Origin: Candidatus Poribacteria bacterium | GTDB taxonomy: Bacteria; Poribacteria; WGA-4E; WGA-3G | Direction of reading: 5' to 3' | DNA: 64,000 bases | NCBI GenBank assembly: GCA_965215265.1 | Contig: OZ244048.1 | Coordinates: forward strand, 400,917-464,916 | Part shown: piece after piece, positions 19,638 to 40,710 of the stretch | How the letters are laid out: every line of letters begins with the position of its first letter | Position numbering within the stretch: position 1 is the first letter of the stretch | The notes under the pieces: model-generated | What the model saw: only the letters and a program-made list of their open reading frames with translations | The model's database searches: none | Told to the model about the DNA's origin: nothing | Position numbers and translations under genes: made by a program

Positions 19638-19653
19638 TGGATAGCCCTCCTCC

Positions 19654-19878
19654 CTATTTTAGTTGATTCCGGCTCTCTGCAAGAGAGTCGCCAGTCTTTT
19701 GACAAATTTCGCGTATTTTTTGGTGAATAGGTGTCATCTTCAAAAGATGTTCCTTTTCGTGTTCGAGGATTTTATCTATGGCACCAGCAAGTTCCTCCTT
19801 GTACCCATCGTACCTTTCCTCAATAGATTGGCATTCATGAAAGATAATGTCAAAGATTTTTTGTCTATTGAACAGCAT
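19654..19878 (-). CDS. hypothetical 74-aa protein between the helicase and the SMC-like ATPase
   Basis: 12-nt and 17-nt gaps to its neighbours on the same strand. No motif. Confidence 0.35.
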   Translation of the reverse strand: MLFNRQKIFDIIFHECQSIEERYDGYKEELAGAIDKILEHEKEHLLKMTPIHQKIREICQKTGDSLAESRNQLK

Positions 19879-19889
19879 GATTCTCTCCT

Positions 19890-22025: not shown

Positions 22026-22054
22026 TTTTTAGACATAATCAAATTTAATAAAAA

Positions 22055-22873
22055 CTACTTATAACAAATCAGACACGGTTCCTCATCGTCTTCATCGTCG
22101 TGCACATCCGTAAGGATATCTATCAGCCGCCGATTCGGACGAGCCGCCCGCTTCGCCGCCTTCGACTCTTCAGCATGTGCCTTAATCTGCTCAATGCGTT
22201 CCGGGTCCGAAAGCTCGTCTAAACTCTCGCTCTGACACCATGTGAACCGTTCACCGGTATCAGGGTCAAATTTCTCGTATGCCTTGGCGAGTTCAAAAAG
22301 GTCGGGATGTTTCTCCAGCAACCCTACCCACTCGGATTTACGCTGGAAGAAGCAGAAATAGCACCCGGAACGCGTCCGCCAATCGTAATAGTCCGGCATC
22401 CCGAGCCCACTCTCCTCCAGAATGCGGTAGACATCCTGTTTCGTGATACCATCTTCCTTAAAAGGATATTTCGGCTCAATGTTTCGCAACTCCGCGTTTT
22501 TCAGCGGCTTATAACCGACGCGATCCTCATCTGCACGAATCGCGATGTAGTTGTACGCCTTGTCGTCACCGACATATCTCTCAAACGGTTTAATCTTGAG
22601 ATTGACGGTACACCAACGCACCTGTGGCGATGGCAACAAGCCCCCTAAAACCGTCAACCAGTGATCGAAATCCCGCTCCGTATTCAGACGGGCGATCGGT
22701 TTGCCGAGGAACGCCTCCAGCCGATCCAAAAACGCATACGTCTCCGGCAATTCTTTCCCAGTATCTGAGAACACATATTCCATCTCCGGCACCCGGTCAC
22801 GCATATAAATCGCGAGTGCAGAACTATCTTTCCCACCGGAGAGCCCAAGAATGTGTCGTCTCTGCTGTTCCAT
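22055..22873 (-). CDS. PAPS-reductase-family PP-loop ATP pyrophosphatase (DndC/SspD-like)
   Basis: PP-loop LGLSGGKDSSAL near the N-terminus. Start chosen at MEQQRR, preceded by RBS GGAGG; the ORF track's longer version overlaps the upstream gene. Confidence 0.75.
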   Translation of the reverse strand: MEQQRRHILGLSGGKDSSALAIYMRDRVPEMEYVFSDTGKELPETYAFLDRLEAFLGKPIARLNTERDFDHWLTVLGGLLPSPQVRWCTVNLKIKPFERYVGDDKAYNYIAIRADEDRVGYKPLKNAELRNIEPKYPFKEDGITKQDVYRILEESGLGMPDYYDWRTRSGCYFCFFQRKSEWVGLLEKHPDLFELAKAYEKFDPDTGERFTWCQSESLDELSDPERIEQIKAHAEESKAAKRAARPNRRLIDILTDVHDDEDDEEPCLICYK

Positions 22874-22883
22874 GTTTTCCTCC

Positions 22884-25800
22884 CTATTCTTGAAGTTGTT
22901 GCATCCATTTCTGTGCAATTCGTGCGAAAATAGCGACGCGAAGCTCAAGGGTATCAGTGCCCATCCCAAACTGCTTAAAGACCTCATCAATAGCCTTTTC
23001 TATTTCGGAAGCCTGCTTATCAGCCGCTGATGGTAAAGTGACGACCCGCTCCTGTTCGGCTTGGTGAGGCCGTGTAATGCCGACCCGAACAGGTTCACTA
23101 GATGACGGCTGACGGCACGCTTGTTCTTCATAAGAAACGGCTTCAAAATGATGGAATTGTCGCGCGAGCGTCGAAAGATTCATCTCAAATAGAGCGTTAT
23201 CTTCGTCATTCCAAGATCTCGGCGGTTTGTTAGCTACATAGAGCGCCACTGCCTCAAGCCAGTCAGTGCGATTCCGAAGCTTGCCATCGCAGACTCGACG
23301 GAGAAATCCGTTGAGCCTCCCCCCAACGGTAATTTCCAACAGCGGCTCTGCTCTGCGAACCAGTACACGCTGAAGCTCTTTCTCGTCTTCCAAAGCGAAC
23401 GTCGTCTTAAGTCGTTGTTCAATCGAATTCAACAGACTCTCGTAGACCTGCCGCAATTCAGATAAAACCTCCTGTAGTCTGCTGCAGAAGTCCGAAACTA
23501 CCTGCGAGTCCACGATTTCCGGGCTGAAAACCGGAAATCCGAGGGCCTTCGGCAGCTCCCCAAAAAGCAGCTCATCCGGTTCACGCGCATTCGTAACCGA
23601 TGTACGCAGCCTCTTAGCTTCATCGCTCAACTCCTCCGTTTTCAAAGTGTAGTCTGGAAGTTGTGCAATAAATTGCATAAGCGGTGCAACCACCGTCAAT
23701 AAATCAGGTTCTCCAGGTTCCGACGATTGACGGAGTACCTTCAGAAATTGCTCGAACAACTCGCCCCGGATAGCTGTCATCCGGAAGCGCTTGATCTCAA
23801 ATCGTTGCGGCATTTTAAGCAGCCGCTCAAAAAGCGGCACTGACCATTCCGGGGCAAAGCCCCCATTTTCGTAGAGCGCGATTTCCGACTTGTAATGCAG
23901 CAGAGCAGCACACAACAGAATCGGCAGCAGACCATTTCGAACACCGTAAGGCTCGGCCTCTAAGCATTTATAGAGAGCTACTACCGGTTGCCGCTCGCCT
24001 TCACACTCCTCAAGAAACGCATCTATTTCTCCCCACACGGGCATCAGACTTTCTTCCGTTGGCGGACAAAACCCCCACATGTCCGAAACTTTGCGATGCA
24101 TGCCCGTACTCTCTAACACAGAACGGTAGATGCTCATTTCAGCCGGGTAACCGTTGATGCCGAGGTTTTCCATGTCACTCCTCTCAAGCATCGCCTCAAT
24201 CAATTTTCTTCGGGCAGTCGCCGCTGTCGCAGAAATACTACGTCTATTGATGAGCTCATTACGAATAATAGGTGTCCCAGGGTAAACCTGCTTACAGATT
24301 TCTGACAAATATCTGTTCCGCGCACGTTGGGAGTTGATACTTTCTACAGGTTTCCCTTTGTGGTACCAGAGACAAGTTTTATCTCTATCCTTGTCGCCCT
24401 TAAAAATTTCGGTTAGTTGACCGGACACTGCGCGTTCTGCTTCCATCTGCCGCAGGAGGAGCTCCCGTCTTGCAACTGCATCGCCCTCCAATTCCGGGGT
24501 GTTTTCCGCAACCCAATGTAGACAGGCAAGTTCAAAGACAACCTCTTGCAGCGACTCGATCGAACGTGGAATCGCAACCAACACCGCCGCGTGCGCGACA
24601 CTGTCCATGCCGCACGCCTTCTCAATGAACTGATCGACCTGTTCCTGCGTCGCAGGTAGCGTGTAAAGGATCAGACCGTCCGCATCCTCGAACGGTTCAC
24701 TCAGATCTGCCTCGAAGTTCTCAAGATTGGTGTACCGAACAGTGAAATGACGGAGGGTCCCTGTCTCAAACAGATGCTGCCGTGCAACGAGCGGACGCGG
24801 TTGTGTATAGCGCGAGAGGTCTGCAGCAAGCACTAACTCCGAACCAATATGGGCCGCGGCTTCGCGGAGCCGTACCTCAATATCAATATCACTCCCTTCC
24901 CAAAGGGCGTAGGTGTCATTGTAACGACGGTATATCACAATGGATCGCCTTTTCAGATCTGCAAGCGCCTCCTCAAATCCTCCTCCGTTAGCGTCTAACG
25001 CATAACGCAGCATTTGTGCTGAGGCTTTCAGCTCAGGAATCCCTGTGTTAACAACATTGAGTAACCCAATAGTTTTAATCAGACGAAGCGCTAACGGTGA
25101 AGGATCCGATAAGCAATCTAAGGCAGATTCAATTTCTACCCATTTTTTCCCGTTATGAGAAGCATAAAGCCGATGCCCTTGTGTAGTATGAAGGTAGTCA
25201 TACAGTTCAGCGAGCGAAAACAGAGGCAGAACCTCTCCATCGTAAGATTCTGATGCCAAAAAGTCTTGTAGCCCATGCGGTTCGCTTGAACTCAGGAAAG
25301 CAAAGAGCGAACGTTCATTCTGTGAGAACCGCCGGAAAAGCGGCCCGATCATGAGGGCCACCGTCGGATGCAGCGGCAGACAACTCTTCAATAACAAAAT
25401 AAATTCGTCTTCATTCAATTGGCGCGGTTTTAGTCCTAAAGCAATTGCATTGTTAAGATTAGGCGGCACGACAACCTCTGGATGCCGCACCAATGCCGCA
25501 CTAATTAACCGAAGCACCTGCTCAGTCGGCTCCGTAAACACCACATCCTCGAACCGGCCCTGAACCTTCGCCCACTCTTCTCGTTGTGACCTACTCGCAC
25601 GTTCCACGTAAAATTCAAAAGCTTGATGCAGGATCGTCATCAGGAAGAACGGTGCCGGCGTACTGCGATCCGCCAATTCGGCGAGGCTCTGCAGAACAAA
25701 TATATCTGCTTGTGCCGGACGATCCGCAGCATATTCGAGAAACTTTCCCAGCTCGTCAACCACCACCAGCAGCCCGGAACCTCCAGCATCACAAATTTGA

Positions 25801-26363
25801 CGTGTCGCCGATTCAAATAGCGCAGTTATCTCAGAGGCAGACGGCGAACCCCCATTTGCTACCATTTCTTTCAGGTTGTCGAGAACCGCAGCAGCACCCC
25901 AATCGCCGTTTGAACGACTGAGCCCATGCTGCAGACCCCGCAGCAGACTACGCGTAAGCGGCGCACGTTCCCCCGAAATCAACACAGGACAGAAACCAGA
26001 TGACGACACCGCCCCCTTACCGTTTGCACCGACAGATACGAATCGCGCATGCAGCTCAGCATCACCCGCCTTCAGGATTTCTAAAGCCTGGCGCGCCGCG
26101 GAAGTGTCACGGGCACCGAGTAACTGTGCCGCAAAGAGTGCAAATGCCGACTTCCCCGAACCATACGGGCCCGTCAGAGACCACGCCTTTGAACCACGTT
26201 CGTTTTCAAACGTAGAAACCACACGCCCCAACATATCCCGCGCACTCACAGTCAAAACGTACCCATCCAGAACGCTCTCCGTGTAGAAATCGCGCTCCAG
26301 ATGCACCGAACGCCTAAAACGCCCCCTAATCTGAAAAATATCTGACAACAAGGTGTTACTCAT
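22884..26363 (-). CDS. large P-loop NTPase (1159 aa; KAP/BrxC/SspC-like ATPase)
   Basis: Walker A LTGPYGSGKSAF and Walker B LLVVVDELGKF in the first 250 aa, with a long alpha-helical C-terminal region. A 4-nt overlap couples it to the upstream DUF4007-like gene. Confidence 0.6.
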   Translation of the reverse strand: MSNTLLSDIFQIRGRFRRSVHLERDFYTESVLDGYVLTVSARDMLGRVVSTFENERGSKAWSLTGPYGSGKSAFALFAAQLLGARDTSAARQALEILKAGDAELHARFVSVGANGKGAVSSSGFCPVLISGERAPLTRSLLRGLQHGLSRSNGDWGAAAVLDNLKEMVANGGSPSASEITALFESATRQICDAGGSGLLVVVDELGKFLEYAADRPAQADIFVLQSLAELADRSTPAPFFLMTILHQAFEFYVERASRSQREEWAKVQGRFEDVVFTEPTEQVLRLISAALVRHPEVVVPPNLNNAIALGLKPRQLNEDEFILLLKSCLPLHPTVALMIGPLFRRFSQNERSLFAFLSSSEPHGLQDFLASESYDGEVLPLFSLAELYDYLHTTQGHRLYASHNGKKWVEIESALDCLSDPSPLALRLIKTIGLLNVVNTGIPELKASAQMLRYALDANGGGFEEALADLKRRSIVIYRRYNDTYALWEGSDIDIEVRLREAAAHIGSELVLAADLSRYTQPRPLVARQHLFETGTLRHFTVRYTNLENFEADLSEPFEDADGLILYTLPATQEQVDQFIEKACGMDSVAHAAVLVAIPRSIESLQEVVFELACLHWVAENTPELEGDAVARRELLLRQMEAERAVSGQLTEIFKGDKDRDKTCLWYHKGKPVESINSQRARNRYLSEICKQVYPGTPIIRNELINRRSISATAATARRKLIEAMLERSDMENLGINGYPAEMSIYRSVLESTGMHRKVSDMWGFCPPTEESLMPVWGEIDAFLEECEGERQPVVALYKCLEAEPYGVRNGLLPILLCAALLHYKSEIALYENGGFAPEWSVPLFERLLKMPQRFEIKRFRMTAIRGELFEQFLKVLRQSSEPGEPDLLTVVAPLMQFIAQLPDYTLKTEELSDEAKRLRTSVTNAREPDELLFGELPKALGFPVFSPEIVDSQVVSDFCSRLQEVLSELRQVYESLLNSIEQRLKTTFALEDEKELQRVLVRRAEPLLEITVGGRLNGFLRRVCDGKLRNRTDWLEAVALYVANKPPRSWNDEDNALFEMNLSTLARQFHHFEAVSYEEQACRQPSSSEPVRVGITRPHQAEQERVVTLPSAADKQASEIEKAIDEVFKQFGMGTDTLELRVAIFARIAQKWMQQLQE

Positions 26364-27352
26364 TCTTCCCCTTCTTTGTCATAATACTGCTTTAAAAGTC
26401 GCATCGACTCTGAATCACACCGACTATCGCGATGGAAAAGTCGCATCGACTCGGAACCACACCGACTATCGCGATGGAGCTGCTTTAAACCTGCAGTATC
26501 ATCATATCGCAGTACACCCGCGGTAAGTTCTTCAAGCCTATCGAGATACAGAGTCATCGTGTCTTCATCTATTCTGAAAATTCGTCCCGGACTTAAGGGT
26601 TCATACATCAGCTCTTGGAAGCGCAATGTGTTCGCTGCAGAAAAACGTTTATCCCAAAACGCAATCAGCGTCGCCGTAAAGAGCTCGACCGGTAAAGTCT
26701 CTTTTCTCCCACGCTGGAACTCATAGCCCGCACCCTCCGGCAACTCACCGATTAAGTTGAGCTCAACAAGCGGACAAGCAAAAGTCTCCTCAACTAAGGC
26801 AGCGTTAAAACTATCAGGTGAAGCGCAATACGTCCGAATAAAACAAGTCACATCGCGCCGAAATGTATTGTCAGAAACAGGCCGCTTCGATACCCGCTGC
26901 TGCGATGCCCACTTCGACAATTCCGTTATAAAGGTGTCAAATGTGAATCGATTCTCCTTAAAAATGTTAAATGCCCAATACCACGTAGTAGCCTGGTTGA
27001 TATGAGTTGCAATCTGCCAATGAATGAACCACAGAGTAGCAGGGTCATCGAGGTACGGATCAAATCCGTCTTTCCCAAAAAAAGCCTCGCCGAGCTCTGT
27101 TGGCACAAATACCCCGGGTTGACGTGATACTGTCTCAATAAGTCCAGATACTCTGCACCAGTACCGAATAGAATCCACCATGTTTTTTCCGACACCTAAA
27201 GTGACGGAAGCCTCCTGCGATGAAAAAACATCCGGATCCTCGATTACCGCATCGACACCTTTCTTCAACCACATGTATCGCATCGGAAACGTCTGATGGC
27301 CTGAAAAGGACAGATTTCTTACTTGTGAAGGGTTGAAGCGTAGGTTACTCAA
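26360..27352 (-). CDS. DUF4007-like protein (SspB-like), first gene of the PT-like operon
   Basis: The N-terminal FSGHQTFPMRYMWLKKG motif is one I associate with DUF4007 proteins that sit beside PAPS-reductase and ATPase genes in Ssp-type clusters. This assignment is from memory. Confidence 0.5.
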   Translation of the reverse strand: MSNLRFNPSQVRNLSFSGHQTFPMRYMWLKKGVDAVIEDPDVFSSQEASVTLGVGKNMVDSIRYWCRVSGLIETVSRQPGVFVPTELGEAFFGKDGFDPYLDDPATLWFIHWQIATHINQATTWYWAFNIFKENRFTFDTFITELSKWASQQRVSKRPVSDNTFRRDVTCFIRTYCASPDSFNAALVEETFACPLVELNLIGELPEGAGYEFQRGRKETLPVELFTATLIAFWDKRFSAANTLRFQELMYEPLSPGRIFRIDEDTMTLYLDRLEELTAGVLRYDDTAGLKQLHRDSRCGSESMRLFHRDSRCDSESMRLLKQYYDKEGEE

Positions 27353-27550
27353 ATTTTGCCCCCAAAAATGTACAAATCCTCAGCACATGCAGCCCTGGGG
27401 GCAAAAAATTGAGAATAAGCGATAGAGAGACGGTACAACAAAAACAGCCCGCAGCCGGTGCCATCAACCAATATGACACACGAGCGCACGGACAAAAAAT
27501 CGGCAAATGCCAATAACGTTTTACTTAATAAAATACTTAACGAATGTGAA

Positions 27551-27560
27551 TTGGGGGGGG
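27551..27560. repeat. G10 homopolymer tract in the leader/promoter region of the PT-like operon
   Basis: attgggggggggg, about 200 nt upstream of the operon's first start codon (minus-strand orientation). Confidence 0.9.
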
Positions 27561-27869
27561 GGTCGTGGCCTGTTAAACCTTGTGTACGAGAGGGATCTCG
27601 TGGAATTAACGACCGACAGCAATTGCAACCGGACGCTGGTACTGTTTTAAATCTAGGACTAATATGTTTATTCTTCATCTACTTTACCGGTTAGATGTGA
27701 GGGAGTATAACTTAAACCAGAATGGAAAATAATTGAGATAATACACATTTTTCTGTTCTTCGGGTCATATTTACCTATATTATACCTTAAACTGCAAATC
27801 TGTTCAAACTATTTCCCGGATTTGTCACGTTTTGTTTTATTATATGAATTATCAAATTCTTGTGCGATT

Positions 27870-28736
27870 CTAGCCTTTAAACACCTCTCTTAGGTGCCAA
27901 TCTATAAATTCTTCGTTCGGGTAATCCATCTGGCTATGAGGAAAACTAATTTCTTTTCCGTGGAATCTCATTAGCCATTCTTCAAAACCGGCTGACCCGT
28001 CTGCATCCTCAGATACCACTATTGTCAACTCCTCGGACAATGCAAAGGCCCCCCGGTCGAACAACTTATGATGTAGCGAGCAGAGAGCCATGCCATTCTC
28101 TGCTATATCCGGTCCATCCGCCATGCGCCATTTGATATGAGCCGCCTCTAAAGCGACAGGACGAGCTCGTAACGTTACATTAAATCCACAAATCGCACAC
28201 TCGTGGTTATAAGCATCGAGGATACGGTGCCGGAATTTAGGATCACGGGGCTGCCAGAACGATCCGAAAGATAGTTCAATGCCGACAGCTTGTAAAATAT
28301 CTTCATGGTATGAGATTGGAAAATGAGAAGCTAGCAACCGCCCAGTTATTTCAAAAACTAAACCCAAATCGCTTTTAAGTTTTTCGGCAATCGCTGCCGG
28401 AAAGCTACCGACACCGTACTCCCTCAAATCGGTGACGTACGCATCTCCACTAGCAGTCTGCTGAATTCTATGTGCATCGGATACTTGCCAGATGTCGTCG
28501 TTTTGCAACCGCCAAAATGGCTGCTCAGGGTGATACCTTTGGCACCACGGTCCAAACTCTTTTAGTAAGTCCTTGAGTTCCTTTTCAGCTTCTGCAAATG
28601 GGATGTACTCAGTTTCGCTGTTCAGCAATTTGCCTATCGCATAAAGTAGCAGCAACGGCTTATGAGGCGCTCTTTCGCCGCCGCTTTTCCATACATTCAA
28701 GTCCTGAAATTTCTGAATAATTGATTCTCTGTCCAT
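27870..28736 (-). CDS. HNH endonuclease-domain protein (288 aa) with an uncharacterised N-terminal domain; possible modification-dependent (Type IV-like) nuclease
   Basis: C-terminal HNH core HECAICGF...EAAHIKW...ALCSLHHKLFDRG. Confidence 0.7.
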   Translation of the reverse strand: MDRESIIQKFQDLNVWKSGGERAPHKPLLLLYAIGKLLNSETEYIPFAEAEKELKDLLKEFGPWCQRYHPEQPFWRLQNDDIWQVSDAHRIQQTASGDAYVTDLREYGVGSFPAAIAEKLKSDLGLVFEITGRLLASHFPISYHEDILQAVGIELSFGSFWQPRDPKFRHRILDAYNHECAICGFNVTLRARPVALEAAHIKWRMADGPDIAENGMALCSLHHKLFDRGAFALSEELTIVVSEDADGSAGFEEWLMRFHGKEISFPHSQMDYPNEEFIDWHLREVFKG

Positions 28737-31850: not shown

Positions 31851-32392
31851 CCAAAATTTTATGTTTCATAAATTATAACCGATAACTCCGTTATGAGTCA
31901 ATAGAAAATTTACGCGCACTTCCTCTATTTTTTCTAGCAGATTTACGAGAAACGGGTTTTCGTGGAAGTTGATTCTTTTTTGACACGTTTCCACAAATCT
32001 AGAATACTGTGAGAACCGGCCATCGTGCCAATGCTATCCGAGCCGAATTTACCGGAACCCCTCAACGAAAGAGCAGAATACGTCGACAGATGTGTTAGTC
32101 GATACTGTCCCCCATTTCGCAGCTCTCTTGCGCCGCGCGGACTCACAGCTTTTCTCATACACAGACTCCGCCATCGTCCCCAGACGCAACTCACAAAAAA
32201 AGTGCCGCTAAATCAGACTCCCATACATTTTTCTTACAATTTTTTTAAAAATATGATATATTAATGTGAACATCATAAAAATCTGCCTGACAATGTTGCA
32301 AACCTGCTTATCAGAGGAGACAACCGCATGCACAATAAACTCACAAAGCCCAGCCTCGTCCCTCAACCGCATGGCCCCAGAGGAGCAAACGC

Positions 32393-35300
32393 ATGAACAA
32401 AGAACACATCAGAGAGGCTCTCGCTGCAATATGCACTGGCCCCTTTTTACAAACCGCGAAAAACCTGCTCGCCACGCTCGGCTACCGCAGCGATTTGACA
32501 GAAGCATTCTCTGGAACAGCCGGCGACTTTATAGAGACTTTCCCCGCATTCAACCCGAACACCCAAACGGAACAAGCCCTCCGAAACCACGCAGCCTCGA
32601 TACACTTCATCTTCCAACTCACAGACGCAGAAATAGATGGCGAAACGCAACAGCGGTTAGAACTCTTTGAAGGAAACGATGCGGAAAGTTTCTTTTTCTT
32701 CGCGGTTGAACTAAAAGAGAAAACCTACTCCCGCGGTGCGTACGCAGAATTGACGCGAGAAATCAATAAGCGTCTGATTGTTCCGACGGTGGTGTTATTT
32801 CGTGTGTCAACCCGGCTAACCCTCGGTTTTGTGGGACGCCGTCCACACGAGCACCACCCAGAACGTGATGTTCTCCAACAAGTGACACTCATCAAGGATA
32901 TTCGTCTTGAGGCACCGCACCGTGCGCATTTAGATATCCTCTCTGAACTTTCACGAACAGAATGCCTGAACTGGATGGACGCAAATAACAGACAGAAAAA
33001 CTTAGCCGGACTGCTATCCGCCTGGCTAGCGAAACTCAACACCGAAGCGCTCAATAAGCAGTTCTACCGAAGGTTGTTCAGCTGGTTTGAGTGGGCAGTG
33101 AGGGAAGCGAAGTTCCCGACAGCCGAGCTGAATCCGTTGGGTTCCGAAGCACACATCATCCGGCTCATCACGCGGCTGCTCTTTATATGGTTCTTGAAAG
33201 AAAAAGGGCTTGTCCCCGAGTGGCTTTTTCAAGATTCCGGGCAGAAAGAGCAGGCGGGCACGCAAAACAACGAGCTGTCTGAAGAATCTGAACAGAATAG
33301 GCAGGTAAGCCTGCAAAACAACCAACAGTCTGAATACCCCCCCCCTTACAGACGTTAAGTCTTCTGCCGAACTCCACGACAGAAAGCAGCCTGCACGCAC
33401 ACCTCAAAAACTTTGAGCCCGACACATCCGACTACTACCAAGCCATCCTCCAAAACCTATTCTTTGCTACTCTCAACACACCTATAAATCAACGCACATT
33501 TAGCACACACGATAACCGGAGCCACCGCGACTCAAGCAAATATCGCTATGCTGACCTGCTCCAACAACCCGACACCTTCCTTCAACACCTAAAGCACGTC
33601 CCATTTGTCAACGGCGGACTGTTTGACTGCCTCGATACCTTTGAGGCAACCGGCGACGGCGGTGTCCGAATAGACTGTTTCTCTGATAACAAAACAGTTC
33701 GGCAAAAATTACACGTCCCCGCAAAACTCTTCTTTGACAAAACACACGGCCTCTTTCCTCTCTTCGCTCACTATAAGTTTACCGTCGAGGAAAACACACC
33801 CATTGAACAAGAAGTCGCGCTCGATCCAGAACTGCTCGGACAGATATTCGAAAACCTGCTCGGCACCTATAACCCCGAAACACAATCCACCGCACGCAAA
33901 GCCACAGGCTCTTACTACACACCCCGCCAGATTGTCGACTATATGGTAGACGAGGCACTCATCGCATACCTCCTCCAAAACGTCAAACCCTACGACGGAA
34001 ACACACAATCCCTTGAAGAACGCCTCCGCGAAGACCTCCTCGCTTACGAATCCCAAGGCAACATTGATGAAGACGCACATCACCTCATTCATCCAGAGGA
34101 AATCCAACCCCTCATTCAGGCAATCGACGCACTCAAAATCATAGATCCAGCCGTCGGCTCCGGGGCTTTCGCTATGGGCATCCTCAATAAACTCGTGCTC
34201 ATCCTCCGAAAACTCGACCCGCAGAATCAAAACTGGAAGCAGCGACAACTTCAACAAGCTGAGAACATACCAGATACCCATAGCCGAGAAAGCGCGAAGC
34301 AGGCAATTGAGGCAGTTTTCTCCAAGGCGAATCACTACAACGACTACGGACGTAAACTCTACCTCATCCAAAACGGCCTCTACGGCATAGATATACAACC
34401 CATCGCCGTCACCATAGCAAAACTCCGCTTTTTCATCTCCCTCATCATAGAGCAGATACCCAACCAGAACCCTGACGACAACTACGGCATCAGACCCCTC
34501 CCCAACTTGGAGACGAAGTTCGTTGCCGCAAACACCCTCATCGGCTTGAAGGGGGCAAAAGAAACGGATTTTCAGCGCTTGCTGGAAACAGACACCATCC
34601 AACAACTCCGCAACGACATTGAAGTCATCCGCGCCAAACACTTCTCCGGCAGCACCCGTCCGCAAAAACTTGAGGCGATGCGAAAAGAGGAAAAGTGCCG
34701 TGAAAAATTGGCACGAGCGCTAAGAACACAGTCGGAACAGTGGACGGTGCAGGAGCAAAGCCGGATATCCCAACAGATTGCGCAGCTGCCAAAAAAGGAG
34801 GCGCGCAACCAACTCCAAGAAAAACTCGAGAAAGCGTATGCAATTCGTCAGCAAAAGCTAACAGCCAGCGTAGAAGAGGCACAGAAAATCGCAGACTGGA
34901 ATCCATACAACCAGAACGCCGTCGCCGATTTCTTTGAACCCGCATGGATGTTCGGCATCCACCACGGCTTTCACATCGTCATCGGCAATCCACCCTACAT
35001 CCGACACCACAAAATTCACCATCTCAAACCTACCTTGAAAACACAATTTGGTGATTTCTTTACGGGCATGGCAGACATCAGCGTCTACTTCTACAAACGC
35101 GGAGCCGAACTACTACGAGAAGGTGGTTTACTCTCCTACATCTGCACAAACAAGTTTATGCGCAGCGGCTACGGAAAAAAACTACGCCAATTCCTAACCG
35201 CTGAGATGGCACTAAAAACAATTTTGGATTTCGGCAGCCTTTCCGTCTTTGACGCAGCAGTAAATGCATCCATTCTCCTCGTTCAAAAGTCGCCACCTAC

Positions 35301-36300
35301 TCCAAACCACACCCTCCATGCGACAACCCTAAGGCATGTTTCAAAGGAATTTAACGTCCGGAAAGCATTTCAAACGCAGGCATTCCCGATGCAGCTCGCC
35401 TATTTGTCTTCAGAAGAATGGACGTTAGCACGCACAGAAACACTCGCCCTACTACAGAAATTGCAACACACGGGAACATCATTCAGCGAATCAATACAAG
35501 GTCAACTTTATATTGGTATCTTCACCGGATACAATGAAGCATTTATCATAGATGAATCTCTCTGTCAGCAGCTAATAGCAGAGGATGCCAAAAGCGCACA
35601 ACTCATAAAACCTTTACTGCGAGGGCGGAATCTCAAAAAATGGAAAGCGGTATCAGCAAACGAGCACTTGATAGCAATAGCCAGCAGTGCCAATAAACAG
35701 TGGCCCTGGTCAAACGCAGCAAGCGAATCTGAAGCCGAACAGATTTTTGAAAAAACCTATCCAGCAATCCATCGCCATCTAATACGCTATAAAGAGCGGC
35801 TTTTACCCCGTGATAACCAGGGAAAATTCTATTGGGAGTTGCGTTCGTGCGCCTATTACGACGCGTTCGAAAAGCCGAAGATCATCTATCCGGATATTAG
35901 CTCATCTATGCGTGCGTGTTATGATACCGCAAACGCTTTTTCCTTACAGACTACCTACATCTTACCTACTGAGGATCTCTCTTTGCTTGCAATTTTGAAC
36001 AGCCAACTTTTTGATTGGTATGCCAAATATAAGTTTCAGAGCCTTAACGATCCGTGGATAGGTGGTGGCTTGCGTTTCATTGCTCAATACATGCGACATG
36101 TCCCGATAGCCAATAGAACAGAAGCACAGAAAGCCGCACTCTCACGCCTCGTCGCGCAGATATTGGCAGAACCCAACGGCGATGCCGTGAACGCACTTGA
36201 GAAAGAGATAGATACCTTAGTCTATCAGTTATATGAGTTAACGCCGCAAGAAATTCAACTCATAGAACAGACGTATCGCGACGCAGGGATGACAGTATGA
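32393..36300 (+). pseudogene. MmeI-family Type IIG restriction-modification enzyme (PD-ExK nuclease + gamma-class N6-adenine MTase + TRD), reading frame broken at a C9 tract
   Basis: The N-terminal frame (32393..33358) carries D...FFFFAVELKEK (ExK) and the LITRLLFIWFLKEKGLV helix. The downstream frame opens at 33334 and carries LGQIFENLLGTY...GSYYTPRQIVDYMV, IIDPAVGSGAF (motif I) and VIGNPPYI (motif IV). The frames meet at the 9-C run at 33338-33346. Confidence 0.7.
33338..33346 (+). repeat. C9 homopolymer inside the Type IIG R-M coding sequence (candidate slipped-strand phase-variation tract)
   Basis: gaatacccccccccttac; the frame changes exactly here. Confidence 0.85.
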
Positions 36301-36425: not shown

Positions 36426-36584
36426 TTATCATGAGAAGTCAACAGCCTAAGCAGATAGATAAGGATATCAAGATTTATTTCAAACGCGTCTGCTCTAAGT
36501 GGCAACGACTTTGGGGCCGAAGCGGCTGTCGGCGATAACCGCCTCCGTTCGTGAATTGGATAGTTTGTAGTCAAACAGAGGCAG

Positions 36585-36960
36585 CTGCCAGATAACCCGT
36601 TTTCACGAAAGGAACAGATTTTGTATTTTATGAACGCAGTGGTAGTCTACGCTCACGAAAATCCTCGTGAAACTTTTCGTGAATTGCATACCACCAACCA
36701 AAACAGAGGAAACTACCAGATAAGCCTGTTTCACGAAAAAACGCATGTCGAATCTTCTGAACGCAGTGGTAGTCTACGCTCACGAAAATCCCTCGTGAAA
36801 CTTTTCGTGAATTGGAGACTCTGGAGCAAAACAAAGGAAGTTGCGATATGAGCCGTTTCACGAAAGGAACGGATTCTGTATCGTATGAACGCAGTGGTAG
36901 TCTACGCTCACGAAAACCTCTCGTGAAACTTTTCGTGAATTGCATCCGGTACAGACACAC
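36585..36960. repeat. 3 x roughly 128-bp tandem direct repeat with embedded 9-bp perfect inverted repeats (TCACGAAAA...TTTTCGTGA) and many copies of the CACGAAA/TTTCGTG heptamer
   Basis: Units start near 36631, 36758 and 36886 (tgaacgcagtggtagtctacgctcacgaaaa[t/c]cc[c]tcgtgaaacttttcgtgaattg). A partial copy lies at 36365-36395. Confidence 0.85.
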
Positions 36961-38927: not shown

Positions 38928-39770
38928 ATGCGGAGTTGCTATATGAACAGTCCAAAAATCATAATCCCACGCACCGAAAGCGACAAGCTGCTCGCAATGC
39001 CAACACGCGAAGCTGAACAACTCTTCCAAAGTTATGAAAAGCAACAGCAGCTTGATATTATAAACGCAACGCGAAACCCTAGAAAGCGAGAACAACTCTA
39101 CTATCTCGTACCTGATTGCACCGAACTCATACAAGAAAGCCCAACCGTCGAAGTCCTCCAAATCCTCGACACGATGCTCGGCACAGGACTCGCATCCGCA
39201 CTGCTACCTTGCCTCTCAAATGAACAATTTGAAGAACTCGTCGATATTGCAGTCTGGCAAGACGGAAAATTAGATCAAGAATCTCTTAACCTCTGGCTCT
39301 TTGAACTCTCTGAATGCGATCGCGACGACCTCGCACGATTCCTCGCAGAACTCGACATCCGACTCCTCGCCGCACTCCTCCACCAACGCATACTATTGCA
39401 AAGCGAATACGCCGCAATGTTCATTGAAGCTGAATACATCGACCCAGGCTCCCCCGCAATTCGCTATCTCGATGAACAAGCAAAAACCATTAGTCAGGCT
39501 ATCTGGGAAGCTGACGGCGAGATCTTCCTTATGCTACTACGCGAACTCTTCGCAATTGATGAAGAAGGAGAAGTCGACGACATACTCGCTCATACACTCG
39601 GTATCGCACAAGCTGACAGACAAGAACGCGTCGAACTACGCGATAAACAGACCGGCATTGATGTCACAGAAGCTGAATTGACACAACGCGTAGATCTCAA
39701 CTCACTCACACTTCAAGACGGAGAAGAAGAAGAGCAGCAGGAGGAAAATGATGATGATGAAACAAAATAA
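38928..39770 (+). CDS. hypothetical acidic protein
   Basis: 280-aa ORF with coding-like composition and an Asp/Glu-rich C-terminus. No motif. Confidence 0.4.
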   Translation: MRSCYMNSPKIIIPRTESDKLLAMPTREAEQLFQSYEKQQQLDIINATRNPRKREQLYYLVPDCTELIQESPTVEVLQILDTMLGTGLASALLPCLSNEQFEELVDIAVWQDGKLDQESLNLWLFELSECDRDDLARFLAELDIRLLAALLHQRILLQSEYAAMFIEAEYIDPGSPAIRYLDEQAKTISQAIWEADGEIFLMLLRELFAIDEEGEVDDILAHTLGIAQADRQERVELRDKQTGIDVTEAELTQRVDLNSLTLQDGEEEEQQEENDDDETK

Positions 39771-40710
39771 CGCACCAATTGTACCAACAACCACCATCGA
39801 CACCCAGCTGTTCCTCGCACAAGTCCTCGCACACGGAGAGGAAAACGGCACAATCTCACATCTCCAGGCCGAGCAGCTCTATCAGAACGTCACCGTCATC
39901 GCACATAAACTTATTACCATGAAAACCCAAAACCTCGCAGACTTGGCAGGACTACGCACCCAGACGCAAAACGCTTTTACACTCATTAGCCTGGGACTTG
40001 AATACGGCAGCAACCGAAACCTCCACAAAGCAGCACGACAACTCCTCAAAAACAGAACCGTCCAATTCTTCCAGATTGGCAACACTATCACCGACAAAGT
40101 CGTAGCACGCGCACGCAAACTCATACAAAGCAAAGGACTTCTTACACCTATCGCCTTCCCCGGCCACAACACCGAAGAATTCATTATTTTCAACAAAGCC
40201 GAGCACGATTTTTTGAACGCAACGCTCCAATATAGTCTCAACATTCAAACACCCCAAATCACTATTAGAGAAACAATACCATGGCGCACTATTACACAAT
40301 TGAACGACATAAAACTCATGGAAAATCAACTCGCATGCCTTGAAAACCGACGCCACTACCTCGCAGCTTTGCCCCTCGAACAAATTTTAAAACCCGACAC
40401 ACAAATTTTAAAATCCGACACAATGCTCAACTTCACCTTAAAACCTGTAGAATCAATCACGCTCGGCCTGATCGTCAACCTCACGCTCCATCGGCAAATC
40501 GATTTACAACTCGACTACGATGCCTTAAACGATTTCACCGAACTCGCTTATACCGACGGGCAAATCTCAAACGCCATTCGACAACGATTACTCGACTGGA
40601 TTAAACAATACCTTGACCAGCACCATCAACCTCACGCAGTACAACAATACGCCGCCGCATACTGGGATGAATGTCTTCATGACTATCAACAAATCAGAAA
40701 ATATCGATGA
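39748..40710 (+). CDS. hypothetical protein
   Basis: 320-aa ORF overlapping the previous gene by 23 nt. No motif. Confidence 0.4.
   Translation: MMMMKQNNAPIVPTTTIDTQLFLAQVLAHGEENGTISHLQAEQLYQNVTVIAHKLITMKTQNLADLAGLRTQTQNAFTLISLGLEYGSNRNLHKAARQLLKNRTVQFFQIGNTITDKVVARARKLIQSKGLLTPIAFPGHNTEEFIIFNKAEHDFLNATLQYSLNIQTPQITIRETIPWRTITQLNDIKLMENQLACLENRRHYLAALPLEQILKPDTQILKSDTMLNFTLKPVESITLGLIVNLTLHRQIDLQLDYDALNDFTELAYTDGQISNAIRQRLLDWIKQYLDQHHQPHAVQQYAAAYWDECLHDYQQIRKYR

What the first reader, a model, noticed from the sequence alone, without database searches (positions are those of the whole stretch)
32393..36300. MmeI-family Type IIG R-M gene interrupted exactly at a C9 tract: phase-variable (currently OFF) or homopolymer sequencing error
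The N-terminal 320 codons carry a PD-ExK nuclease motif (…FFFFAVELKEK…) and the MmeI-type helix LITRLLFIWFLKEKGLV. They are in one frame, and a stop follows 4 codons after a 9-C run at 33338-33346. The adjacent frame opens just before the same C-run. It continues for about 990 codons through the canonical middle region (GSYYTPRQIVDYMV), MTase motif I (DPAVGSGAF), motif IV (NPPY) and a TRD-length tail. A single +/-1 change in the C-tract restores an intact enzyme of about 1300 aa, which is the classic contingency-locus architecture.
Basis: seen in the sequence. Interest (0 to 1): 0.6.

Follow-up and report, generated by a model that had tools for sequence, protein, structure and literature searches.

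The report
Poly-C switch in symbiont restriction-methylase gene
A run of nine Cs really does split a 1,302-codon restriction/methylase-type gene of a sponge-symbiont (Poribacteria-like) genome, and the same run is kept at the same spot, always out of frame, in a dozen related genes, so it is most likely a reversible genetic on/off switch, a known kind of device seen here in a new bacterial group.

Summary
The tract is C9 at 33337-33345. ORF A (32393-33358) and the downstream open frame (33334-36300) overlap only across the tract. C10 or C7 restores one 1,302-aa ORF; C8 does not. It is probably not a sequencing error. Twelve distinct related loci carry C7-C12 at the same linker position and all are out of frame, in both possible frames. 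Both halves are intact in all twelve. WIN versus its closest relative gives dN/dS of about 0.22 for both halves. This includes about 200 ORF B codons that have no start codon of their own.

Two family claims fail. MmeI domains are absent or sub-threshold. The proposed ExK is not conserved, and the N-domain is DUF4391-like with no nuclease fold match. The gene has the Eco57I-methylase plus TaqI_C architecture of Cj0031, a known phase-variable Type IIG enzyme. Relatives usually sit behind an HKD-SNF2 helicase gene, which is missing from this window.

Best reading: a slipped-strand contingency locus, currently OFF. Two things stay unexplained: no in-frame allele was found (0 of 12), and a conserved nucleotide motif lies 3' of the tract and recurs upstream of sspB.

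The parts
32225..32326 (+). Conserved upstream (probable promoter) region. It contains a sigma-70-like site at 32233-32262 (CTTACA-18-TATATT).
   Evidence: It is 92% identical to L001 1588-1689, the region just upstream of the HKD-SNF2 helicase gene of the closest helicase-bearing relative. The promoter-like match is and is a consensus match only.
32393..33358 (+). ORF A, 321 aa. It holds a DUF4391-like N-terminal domain (aa 1-~250) and the start of the helical connector (LITRLLFIWFLKEKGLVP). A Q/N/E-rich linker follows, then the tract, then Y-R-R-stop.
   Evidence: A GAGGAG Shine-Dalgarno-like sequence lies 7 nt before the ATG. The AF2 model has pLDDT 84. 11 of 19 homologous N-domains hit PF14335. 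dN/dS is 0.225 against L084.
33158..33158 (+). Approximate recombination junction. Downstream of this point the gene is about 87% identical in DNA to L001. Upstream of it the N-domain is only 53% identical in protein to L001's.
   Evidence: blastn. tblastn identities. The N-domain is 56-61% identical to the P0103-P0115 subfamily.
33230..33336 (+). Lineage-specific low-complexity insert in the inter-domain linker. It consists of two degenerate units of about 18 aa (..QNNELSEE / SEQNRQVSLQNNQQSEY). The spacing from WFLKEK to YYQA is 82 aa here, against 32 aa in most homologues.
   Evidence: TRF does not score it.
33337..33345 (+). Poly-C tract, C9. This is the frame-break point. C10 or C7 would be in frame.
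   Evidence: Homologous tracts of C7-C12 occur in 11 other distinct loci.
33346..33360 (+). Conserved 3' flank TTACAGACGTTAAGT (ACA-N5-TAAG). 'TAAG' is invariant in all 12 tract-bearing loci. Its TAA is the stop codon of ORF A here.
   Evidence: Alignment A4. The motif is read in two different frames of ORF B among the loci. A second copy lies at 27535-27562 on the minus strand.
33334..36300 (+). ORF B open frame, 988 codons: helical region, gamma-class N6-adenine methyltransferase, TaqI_C-type target-recognition domain and C-terminal helices. The first ATG/GTG/TTG in this frame is at 33943.
   Evidence: PADLOC REase_MTase_IIG at 2.6e-94. dN/dS is 0.220 overall and about 0.19 over the first 200 codons.
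34372..35250 (+). Eco57I-type methyltransferase domain (PF07669), with motif I DPAVGSGAF at 34144-34170 just upstream and motif IV NPPY at 34987-34998. A coiled-coil insert of about 270 aa separates motifs I and IV.
35608..36045 (+). TaqI_C-like target recognition domain (PF12950).
   Evidence: PDB sequence matches to the MTase+TRD of CamA and M.BseCI. This region is mosaic among the paralogues of the same genome.

Best explanation
The locus is one gene for a large fusion protein of 1,302 aa. Its order is a DUF4391-like N-domain, a helical connector, an Eco57I-type N6-adenine methyltransferase and a TaqI_C target-recognition domain. This is the architecture annotated as 'Type IIG' for Cj0031-like enzymes. 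It lies in a defence island of a Poribacteria-like sponge symbiont.

A hypermutable poly-C tract sits in a dispensable, insertion-tolerant inter-domain linker. Slipped-strand mispairing during replication changes the tract length. C10 (or C7, C13) gives the full-length protein. C9, the state in this assembly, ends translation 4 codons after the tract. The result is a 321-aa N-terminal fragment with no methyltransferase or TRD, i.e. OFF.

Shown:
- the tract, the frame geometry and the lack of any other lesion;
- conservation of the tract, with length polymorphism, across diverged relatives;
- purifying selection on both halves.

Inferred:
- the switching itself (no reads are available);
- the biological output (methylation, with or without restriction).

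The usual HKD-SNF2 helicase-nuclease partner is absent from this 64-kb window, and the N-domain shows no nuclease signature. The ON state here may therefore give modification or epigenetic switching rather than autonomous restriction.
For: 1. Geometry. The two open frames overlap only at 33334-33358, around the C9 tract. C10 or C7 gives one ORF of 1,302 or 1,301 aa with no internal stop.
2. Ancestral state. Homologues are single proteins of 1,200-1,290 aa covering both halves, with a 32-aa WFLKEK..YYQA spacing and no tract.
3. Conservation. Twelve distinct loci carry C7, C9 (x7), C10, C11 (x2) or C12 at the same linker position. Their ORF B identity to the window is 64-90%. Both half-ORFs are intact in every one.
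4. Specificity. 13 of the 19 G/C runs of 8 nt or more in 1.23 Mb of related loci are at this site. 80 more distant homologues from other metagenomes lack such tracts.
5. Not an artefact.
 - Both OFF frames occur: 8 loci are one nucleotide above an in-frame length and 4 are one below.
 - The assemblies include Illumina scaffolds and independent Logan and ENA assemblies that agree on tract length.
 - Homopolymers of 6-8 nt elsewhere in the window lie within intact ORFs.
6. Still under selection. dN/dS is 0.225 for ORF A and 0.220 for ORF B against L084. It is about 0.19 for the first 200 ORF B codons. These precede the first possible start codon, so they can be translated only as a fusion.
7. 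Second tract. A sister subfamily has a poly-G run in an N-domain loop, and both in-frame and broken alleles of it are seen.
8. Precedent. Cj0031 of C. jejuni has the same Pfam architecture (1,243 aa) and is experimentally phase-variable through a G9 tract (PMC4889913).
9. Context. The neighbours form a defence island with PbeA/C-like, SspB/C/D and PT-dependent HNH genes.
Against: 1. No in-frame allele of this tract was found. All 12 distinct loci are OFF, which has a probability of about 0.008 if the three frames were equally likely and the loci independent.
2. All cluster members, including at least 5 paralogues in the window's own genome, were called as N-truncated proteins. Classical phase variation predicts some ON alleles.
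3. No read-level data are available, so length heterogeneity within a population is untested.
4. The HKD-SNF2 partner found next to 53 of 83 relatives is absent from the window. The gene is also a recombinant. It could therefore be an orphan on its way to loss.
5. A 3' nucleotide motif is conserved independently of reading frame. Simple slipped-strand switching does not explain this.
Confidence: 0.6

Rival explanations
1. Recoding rather than DNA-level switching. The out-of-frame tract is the normal, selected state. Ribosomal slippage of tRNA-Pro on CCC repeats (+1 or -1), or RNA-polymerase slippage on the run, yields a small constitutive fraction of full-length enzyme. Most translation gives the free 321-aa N-domain protein.
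For: - 0 of 12 distinct loci, and none of the clustered paralogues, are in frame.
- Both halves are nevertheless under purifying selection, including ORF B codons that have no start codon of their own.
- A nucleotide motif (ACA-N5-TAAG) 3' of the tract is conserved regardless of reading frame.
- From general knowledge, not tested here: CCC-C is a classic +1 frameshift-prone site, and conserved frameshifted homopolymers rescued by polymerase slippage are known in insect endosymbionts.
Against: - Loci need shifts in opposite directions: 8 need +1 and 4 need -1. A single programmed mechanism would fix one direction.
- There is no conserved RNA structure. RNAalifold predicts 0 pairs on A4. The 100 nt downstream fold with z = -0.29. 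There is no Rfam match.
- From general knowledge: rC:dG hybrids are the least slippage-prone for RNA polymerase.
- Tract length varies from C7 to C12 instead of being fixed.
Confidence: 0.17
2. Decaying orphan pseudogene. After recombination removed the helicase-nuclease partner, the gene was inactivated by a frameshift in a chance homopolymer. It is no longer used.
For: - The HKD-SNF2 gene is absent from the 64-kb window, while 53 of 83 relatives have it immediately upstream.
- The N-domain was replaced by recombination.
- The nearly invariant E162 is Q in this copy.
- The gene is OFF.
Against: - There is no second lesion in 1,302 codons.
- The same C9/OFF configuration and the same Q162 are shared with L084. 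Since their divergence (dS about 0.2) both halves have evolved at dN/dS of about 0.22.
- The tract is conserved in 11 other loci that do retain the helicase partner.
Confidence: 0.13
3. Homopolymer sequencing or assembly error. The true tract is C10 and the gene is constitutively intact.
For: - Runs of 9 nt or more are the most error-prone feature of long-read assemblies.
- The window appears to come from a single 4.83-Mb contig.
- A one-base under-call would produce exactly this state.
Against: - The same site is out of frame in 11 other loci, including Illumina-based scaffolds and independent assemblies that agree on length.
- Eight of these are one base longer than an in-frame length, the opposite of an under-call.
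- Shorter homopolymers in the window are not frame-breaking.
- Several paralogues in the same genome are also called truncated.
Confidence: 0.06
4. A natural two-subunit arrangement. ORF A and ORF B are separately translated proteins that assemble, and the tract is incidental.
For: - In 8 of 12 loci a TTG or ATG lies close enough to the tract to give an ORF B product that covers all conserved residues.
- DUF4391 also exists as a stand-alone family.
Against: - In the window the first start codon of ORF B is 202 codons downstream (33943). It is 45-78 codons downstream in three other loci. An ORF B product starting there would lack conserved motifs such as FVNGGLFD.
- No Shine-Dalgarno-plus-start arrangement is conserved.
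- All tract-less homologues are fused.
- A stable split would not need to keep a mutable C7-C12 run.
Confidence: 0.04

Closest known systems
Cj0031 (cj0031/cj0032) of Campylobacter jejuni NCTC11168, a phase-variable Type IIG restriction-modification enzyme (Anjum et al. 2016, PMC4889913)
   Same: - A single polypeptide of about 1,240-1,300 aa with Pfam Eco57I (PF07669) plus TaqI_C (PF12950).
- An intragenic G/C homopolymer of nine bases splits the gene into two annotated ORFs.
- In Cj0031 ON/OFF switching changes methylation, and the ON state restricts phage.
- Only a subset of alleles carries the tract.
- The TRD is variable between alleles.
   Different: - The tract position differs. In Cj0031 it is at nt 2573, inside the methyltransferase. 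Here it is at nt 945, in the linker between the N-domain and the helical/MTase part, so the OFF product is an intact N-domain.
- The phylum and lifestyle differ: an uncultivated sponge symbiont here.
- Here the tract is conserved across a whole clade and across several paralogues per genome, and no ON allele has been seen.
Two-gene module of an HKD(PLD)-SNF2 helicase plus a Cj0031-like methyltransferase fusion (PADLOC candidate PDLC01075 'HKD+Snf2'; context noted by Milman et al. 2023, PMC9881135)
   Same: - The relatives of this gene, including the tract-bearing ones, have a protein of about 1,086 aa immediately upstream on the same strand. It carries NgoFVII-like PLD and SNF2 helicase domains.
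- The same pairing is annotated on Parabacteroides and Planktothrix plasmids.
   Different: - In this window, and in the closest relative L084, the helicase gene is missing.
- The promoter-proximal 102 bp that precede the helicase in L001 here directly precede ORF A.
- No mechanistic study of this module was found in the two literature searches run for it.
MmeI family (Type IIL/IIG; MmeI, NmeAIII, DrdV)
   Same: - The general order: N-terminal domain, helical spacer, gamma-class N6A methyltransferase (NPPY), then TRD, in one chain.
- An R-L-L-F-x-x-F helix resembling the start of the MmeI-type helical domain.
   Different: - No MmeI-specific Pfam domain passes threshold (MmeI_Mtase 20 bits against 27; the others are absent).
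- The TRD is TaqI_C-type.
- There is no PDB sequence or Foldseek match to MmeI or DrdV.
- A coiled-coil insert of about 270 aa lies between motifs I and IV.
BREX PglX and DISARM DrmMI methyltransferases
   Same: - An Eco57I-type methyltransferase core.
- Weak profile similarity (PADLOC DrmMI 1e-30 and PglX 1e-17; NCBIfam BREX_1/2 MTaseX about 60 bits).
- The partner in relatives combines SNF2 and PLD domains, as DrmD plus DrmC do.
   Different: - Scores are far below the NCBIfam cut-offs (60 against 400-500).
- There are no BrxA/B/C/L or DrmA/B genes in the window or in the relatives' loci examined.
Conserved frameshifted homopolymers rescued by polymerase slippage in insect endosymbionts (Buchnera and Blochmannia poly(A) tracts; from my own knowledge, not checked here)
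   Same: - Out-of-frame homopolymers are kept over long divergence in genes that remain under purifying selection.
- The organisms are host-restricted symbionts.
   Different: - Those tracts are poly(A)/poly(T) in housekeeping genes.
- Here the tract is poly(C) in a defence gene, with variable length and both frame offsets.

Membership tests
MmeI family (Type IIL/IIG) | MmeI-type methyltransferase domain (Pfam PF20473) at or above the gathering score | tested here: not met
   20.0 bits against a cut-off of 27. Eco57I PF07669 scores 125.3 bits instead.
MmeI family (Type IIL/IIG) | MmeI N-terminal PD-(D/E)XK nuclease domain, MmeI helical spacer, MmeI TRD and MmeI C-terminal Pfam domains | tested here: not met
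   None is reported at E<=0.01. The TRD is TaqI_C. The PDB sequence search hits only CamA, BseCI and StySJI M.
   Position 106 reads Q18 E11 K8 R6 S1 and position 108 reads S20 K7 T6 D5 A3 in 44 homologues.
PD-(D/E)XK nuclease (any motif in the N-domain) | Restriction-endonuclease-like alpha-beta-beta-beta-alpha-beta fold recognisable by structure comparison | tested here: inconclusive
Eco57I/Cj0031-like 'Type IIG' methyltransferase fusions | Eco57I methylase domain (PF07669) with motif I (xPxxGxGxF) and motif IV (NPPY) | tested here: met
   125.3 bits against a cut-off of 25.3. DPAVGSGAF lies at 34144-34170 and NPPY at 34987-34998.
Eco57I/Cj0031-like 'Type IIG' methyltransferase fusions | TaqI_C-type specificity domain C-terminal to the methyltransferase | tested here: met
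   PF12950 scores 44.7 bits against 26.5, at aa 1073-1218. PADLOC REase_MTase_IIG matches at 2.6e-94.
Eco57I/Cj0031-like 'Type IIG' methyltransferase fusions | Endonuclease activity in the same polypeptide, cleaving at a fixed distance from the site | not testable with these tools
   This needs biochemistry. The sequence and fold evidence for a nuclease domain is negative or inconclusive.
Simple-sequence-repeat contingency locus (phase variation) | Homopolymer of about 8 nt or more inside the reading frame, whose length change alone toggles an otherwise intact ORF | tested here: met
   C9. C10 or C7 restores the 1,302- or 1,301-aa ORF, and there is no other stop.
Simple-sequence-repeat contingency locus (phase variation) | Tract retained at the homologous site in relatives, with length polymorphism | tested here: met
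   C7, C9, C10, C11 and C12 occur in 12 distinct loci. The tract is absent from all in-frame homologues.
Simple-sequence-repeat contingency locus (phase variation) | Both ON and OFF tract lengths observed among natural alleles | tested here: not met
   0 of 12 loci are in frame and all cluster members are truncated calls. For a second tract, poly-G in the N-domain of a sister subfamily, both states are seen.
Simple-sequence-repeat contingency locus (phase variation) | High-frequency, reversible length heterogeneity within a population | not testable with these tools
   No read data are available. Independent assemblies of the same samples agree on the majority length (L088/L089 and L090/L091).
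HKD-SNF2 helicase + methyltransferase-fusion defence module | Adjacent, co-oriented gene for a PLD(HKD)+SNF2 helicase protein of about 1,086 aa | tested here: not met
   tblastn of the L001 helicase against the whole window gives no hit better than E = 7.8. The helicase is present in 53 of 83 relatives.
Programmed ribosomal frameshift / transcriptional slippage site | The same frame relationship in all homologues, plus a conserved stimulatory element | tested here: not met
   Frame offsets are +1 in 8 loci and -1 in 4. There is no conserved RNA structure. A conserved 3' nucleotide motif exists, but its role is unknown.
BREX PglX / DISARM DrmMI | Score above the NCBIfam cut-off, and the system's partner genes nearby | tested here: not met
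   BREX_2_MTaseX scores 60.1 against 400 and BREX_1 scores 58.6 against 500. The neighbours are Ssp/Pbe genes, a sigma-54 regulator and metabolic genes.

The most novel reading that the evidence does not exclude
The out-of-frame poly-C tract, together with its frame-independent 3' motif (ACA-N5-TAAG), is a dedicated element of Poribacteria and not just a mutable run. It would keep these multi-copy restriction/methylase genes permanently 'OFF' at the DNA level. Expression would be set by slippage on the C-run, ribosomal or transcriptional, or by a factor that binds the motif. The same element also sits upstream of the phosphorothioation operon (27535-27562). That would make it a shared regulatory switch for several defence systems in an uncultivated symbiont.
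Probability: 0.15. Interest if true: 0.75.

Novelty: new member of a known kind. Interest (0 to 1): 0.5.

Why it matters
Homopolymer-driven ON/OFF switching of restriction-modification genes ("phasevarions") has been documented almost only in cultivable, host-adapted pathogens such as Campylobacter, Helicobacter, Neisseria and Haemophilus. This window extends it to Poribacteria, uncultivated sponge symbionts.

The tract is conserved across a clade of a widespread but unstudied defence module, and across at least five near-identical paralogues with mosaic specificity domains in one genome. If the tracts switch, a single symbiont population could hold many methylome and defence states. That bears on phage-symbiont dynamics inside sponges and on how metagenome-assembled genomes are annotated, because these genes are systematically called as two ORFs or as pseudogenes.

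The total lack of ON alleles and the frame-independent flanking motif are concrete anomalies. Both can be tested with existing public reads.

Tried and rejected
- Paralogues. Retrieving DNA for the other paralogues of the window's own genome (P0123, P0129) failed because they are not on record. Their tract states are therefore inferred only from truncated gene calls.
- Tract-length variants. An exact-flank scan of JGI metagenomes for variants of this very locus found nothing. The protein-based scan returned only distant relatives without tracts.
- RNA explanations for the conserved 3' motif. There is no Rfam family, no consensus structure and no unusual stability.
- Promoter explanation. Reading the motif by eye as a sigma-70 promoter, or the tract as a promoter spacer, gives hexamers and spacings that do not fit.
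- Phylogeny. A tree of the C-terminal parts meant to test single versus multiple origin of the tract was uninformative, because TRD mosaicism scrambles it.
- Literature. 'DUF4391' appears in only two unrelated papers.
- Split-gene reading. Rejected: ORF B has no start codon for 202 codons in this window.


Full report
**1. What is in the sequence**

The window has a run of exactly nine C at 33337-33345.

ORF A starts at ATG 32393, preceded by GAGGAG, and ends at TAA 33356-33358 (321 aa). The neighbouring frame, offset +2 (equivalent to -1), is closed by TGA at 33331-33333. It is then open from 33334 to the stop at 36298-36300, 988 codons. The two open frames therefore overlap only over 33334-33358, and that overlap is centred on the tract.

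Adding one C (C10) or removing two (C7) gives a single ORF of 1,302 or 1,301 codons with no internal stop. Removing one C (C8) does not: the third frame stops at 33414. All quoted motifs are present.

A C9 run is expected 0.30 times per window by shuffling. On its own it is only mildly unusual. Its placement, and its recurrence in relatives, are what count.

**2. What the gene is**

The restored protein hits these Pfam families:

| Family | Score | Cut-off |
|---|---|---|
| Eco57I (PF07669) | 125 bits | 25 |
| TaqI_C (PF12950) | 45 bits | 26.5 |
| N6_Mtase | reported | |
| MmeI_Mtase | 20 bits | 27 (fails) |

No other MmeI domain is hit.

- PADLOC calls it REase_MTase_IIG (2.6e-94), with weak DrmMI and PglX similarity.
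- NCBIfam BREX models score about 60 bits against cut-offs of 400-500.
- The only solved relatives by sequence are the MTase+TRD parts of CamA and M.BseCI.

The N-terminal ~270 aa give no family hit themselves, but 11 of 19 homologous N-domains match DUF4391 (best E 9.5e-7).

Position 106 is mostly Q, E, K or R, and position 108 is mostly S. An AlphaFold model of the domain is confident (pLDDT 84) but has no significant Foldseek match in the PDB (best E 0.009, TM about 0.2). A profile search of PDB sequences finds nothing relevant. The domain has many invariant polar residues and is clearly functional, but a nuclease role is unproven.

The closest described enzyme by architecture is Cj0031 of C. 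jejuni (1,243 aa, Eco57I+TaqI_C). It is experimentally phase-variable through a G9 tract, and its ON state restricts phage (PMC4889913).

**3. Relatives and organism**

A search of 5.8 billion proteins returned thousands of homologues. Most are single fused proteins of 1,200-1,290 aa that cover both halves of the query. They have a constant 32-aa spacing between WFLKEK and YYQA.

The closest relatives, by contrast, were all called as C-terminal fragments of 877-974 aa. P0001 and P0002 are 88-90% identical to ORF B; nine others are 64-68%.

Genome and metagenome loci identify the organisms as Candidatus Poribacteria and other sponge-symbiont MAGs. The window's own proteins are on record from a 4,833,177-bp contig.

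**4. The tract is conserved, polymorphic and always out of frame**

I examined the junction in 91 loci.

- Every locus whose two halves are in frame lacks a homopolymer there.
- Every locus with a homopolymer there is out of frame.

The tract-bearing set has 12 distinct members:

| Tract | Loci |
|---|---|
| C9 | window, L084, L003, L007, L085, L087, L090 |
| C7 | L001 |
| C10 | L014 |
| C11 | L086, L088 |
| C12 | L002 |

Eight are one nucleotide longer than an in-frame length. Four, including the window, are one shorter. In all twelve both half-ORFs are intact (292-359 and 956-1,004 codons).

Of 19 G/C runs of 8 nt or more in 1.23 Mb of related loci, 13 are at this site. Eighty more distant homologues from non-sponge metagenomes have no such tract. 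They are intact apart from a few unrelated breaks.

The assemblies include Illumina scaffolds (TARA and others) and independently built Logan and ENA contigs that agree on tract length. Homopolymers of 6-8 nt elsewhere in the window lie inside long intact ORFs.

A platform artefact would give a consistent direction of error, and would not create a conserved C-run in the first place. I therefore rate sequencing error as unlikely (about 0.06).

**5. The gene is not decaying**

Between the window and L084, both C9 and both OFF, dS is about 0.21-0.24. dN/dS is 0.225 for ORF A and 0.220 for ORF B. Against L001, ORF B gives 0.28.

The first 200 codons of ORF B have dN/dS of about 0.19, yet the first ATG/GTG/TTG in that frame is at 33943, 202 codons after the tract. 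Those codons can be under protein-level selection only if they are translated as a continuation of ORF A. This argues against both a pseudogene and a two-subunit split. It means full-length protein is made at least some of the time.

**6. A second tract in a sister subfamily**

Two paralogues in one Poribacteria genome (L013, L065) carry G8 and G9 inside a loop of the N-domain (…AAVGGG…), and both are broken there.

Database proteins of the same subfamily fall into three groups:

- in-frame versions (P0067, P0072, P0085);
- versions with the run interrupted (AAVGKGRR);
- nine N-truncated calls that start just downstream.

For that tract, ON, OFF and "locked-ON" alleles coexist, which is the classical contingency-locus pattern. 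Homopolymer switching has thus arisen at least twice in this gene family in Poribacteria.

**7. What does not fit the simple switch**

(a) No ON allele of the linker tract was found. With 12 distinct loci, the probability is about 0.008 if the three frames were equally likely and the loci independent.

In addition, all members of the two 90% clusters are truncated calls. These include four further paralogues from the window's own 4.83-Mb contig (P0123, P0128, P0129, P0130, with mosaic TRDs). I could not fetch their DNA.

(b) Immediately 3' of the tract lies a conserved nucleotide motif, ACA-N5-TAAG(T). In the window it is TTACAGACGTTAAGT at 33346-33360. "TAAG" is invariant in all 12 loci, although the surrounding linker is highly variable. 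The motif is read in two different frames of ORF B among the loci: xTA-AGx in seven and xxT-AAG in five. The constraint is therefore on the DNA or RNA, not on the protein. Its TAA is the ORF A stop in 7 of 12 loci, which is about what chance would give.

(c) The same composite, C10 plus AATTCACATTCGTTAAGT, occurs once more in the window. It lies on the minus strand at 27535-27562, in the intergenic region between a phosphorothioate-dependent HNH endonuclease gene and sspB. The expected count is 0.13 per window.

I found no Rfam family, no conserved RNA structure and no unusual folding energy. I saw no convincing sigma-70 geometry either.

These points keep a recoding or regulatory-element reading alive. 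Against a single programmed frameshift, the loci need shifts in opposite directions and the tract length is not fixed.

**8. Genomic context and the missing partner**

In 53 of 83 relatives, a protein of about 1,086 aa is encoded immediately upstream on the same strand. It has an NgoFVII-like PLD/HKD nuclease domain and an SNF2 helicase. It matches the PADLOC candidate "HKD+Snf2" at 1e-112. The same pairing is annotated on Parabacteroides and Planktothrix plasmids. It was also noted for Cj0031-like genes by Milman et al. (PMC9881135).

The window has no trace of this gene. Instead, the 102 bp that precede the helicase in L001 (92% identical) lie just upstream of ORF A. DNA similarity to L001 resumes only at 33158. 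The N-domain in between is 53% identical to L001's but 56-61% identical to that of another subfamily.

The window's gene, like L084, is therefore a recombinant that lost the helicase-nuclease and acquired a different N-domain. N-domain type and helicase type appear to co-vary, which suggests that the N-domain may be the docking or coupling module for the helicase-nuclease rather than the nuclease itself. This is inference.

Upstream the window carries a defence island:

| Gene | Coordinates |
|---|---|
| PbeC/DndD-like | 17529-19637 |
| PbeA | 19890-22025 |
| SspD | 22055-22990 |
| SspC | 22884-26363 |
| SspB | 26360-27352 |
| PT-DNA-dependent HNH endonuclease | 27870-28736 |

**9. Verdict**

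The contingency-locus interpretation is the best supported (about 0.6). The sequencing-error alternative is unlikely. The "MmeI-family" and "PD-ExK" labels should be dropped.

The better description is a Cj0031-like Eco57I-methyltransferase/TaqI_C fusion with a DUF4391-like N-domain, here orphaned from its usual HKD-SNF2 partner.

It is a new member of a known kind, a phase-variable Type IIG-like R-M gene, in a new phylum. Two anomalies are worth a read-level follow-up: no ON alleles, and a frame-independent flanking motif shared with the ssp operon's upstream region.

Noticed in passing
window 27535-27562 (minus strand; G10 on the plus strand at 27553-27562): There is a second long G/C homopolymer (C10 on the minus strand), followed by AATTCACATTCGTTAAGT. 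This is the same 'poly-C + ACA-N5-TAAGT' composite found in the RM gene linker. It lies in the 518-nt intergenic region between the PT-dependent HNH endonuclease gene and sspB, about 200 nt upstream of sspB. The motif is expected 0.13 times per window. It may be a shared regulatory or phase-variable element.
   Followed up: partly
window 17529-28736 (minus strand): A defence island lies here: PbeC/DndD-like (17529-19637), PbeA (19890-22025), SspD (22055-22990), SspC (22884-26363), SspB (26360-27352) and a phosphorothioated-DNA-binding HNH restriction endonuclease (27870-28736; NF045808, 331 bits).
   Followed up: partly
L013 5627-5634 and L065 5685-5693 (both from genome OZ251518.1): A different homopolymer (G8 or G9) lies inside a loop of the N-domain (…AAVGGG…) of a sister subfamily and breaks the frame there. 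In-frame, interrupted and truncated alleles all exist in the protein database (P0067, P0072 and P0085 against P0061, P0062, P0064, P0079, P0094 and P0096-P0099).
   Followed up: partly
window 32225-33158, compared with L001 1588-5820: The gene is a recombinant. The promoter-proximal 102 bp and everything from 33158 onward match L001 at 87-92%. L001's helicase gene and N-domain (4.1 kb) are replaced here by 0.83 kb encoding an N-domain of another subfamily.
   Followed up: yes
proteins P0123, P0125, P0128, P0129, P0130 (all from the 4,833,177-bp contig): The window's genome appears to hold at least five paralogues of this gene that are 88% or more identical. Their TRD segments are mosaic. All were called as N-truncated products of 785-914 aa. 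Their DNA could not be retrieved.
   Followed up: partly
proteins P0003-P0030, P0040, P0041 (linker between WFLKEK and YYKA): In other Poribacteria paralogues (1,270-1,810 aa) the same linker carries in-frame arrays of repeated peptide units (…ARLQSAPTGGGAEA…VGAVSNRAP…). They expand the spacer from 22 to 153 aa, so the linker is an insertion hot spot. The extra ~450 aa of the 1,650-1,800-aa forms were not examined.
   Followed up: no
window 36573-36945: A tandem repeat (128-bp unit, 2.9 copies, 82% matches) lies just downstream of the gene. Each unit contains a small hairpin (TCACGAAAATCC(C)TCGTGA). Similar sequence follows a neighbouring gene in L001 (10249-10666).
   Followed up: no
window 38928-39770 and 39748-40710 (plus strand): Two overlapping ORFs (280 and 320 aa) match the first and last parts of the single Pfam family DUF6178 (profile positions 10-125 and 252-546 of 561). 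The junction lies in GAAGAAGAAGAG…ATGATGATGATG, not in a homopolymer. This is either a frameshifted gene or a natural split.
   Followed up: no
whole window: There is a strong and persistent strand bias. GC skew runs from -0.1 to -0.29 and AT skew up to +0.33 over most of 22-64 kb, and cumulative GC skew falls monotonically.
   Followed up: no
window 32874-32876 (codon 162 of ORF A): The nearly invariant glutamate of the N-domain (E in 42 of 44 homologues) is glutamine in this copy and in L084. This may bear on whether the N-domain is catalytically or functionally altered in the helicase-less lineage.
   Followed up: partly
L037 9020-9044: A 25-nt poly-C run lies inside a 414-codon open frame next to a Spirochaetia homologue of this system. 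It was not examined further.
   Followed up: no
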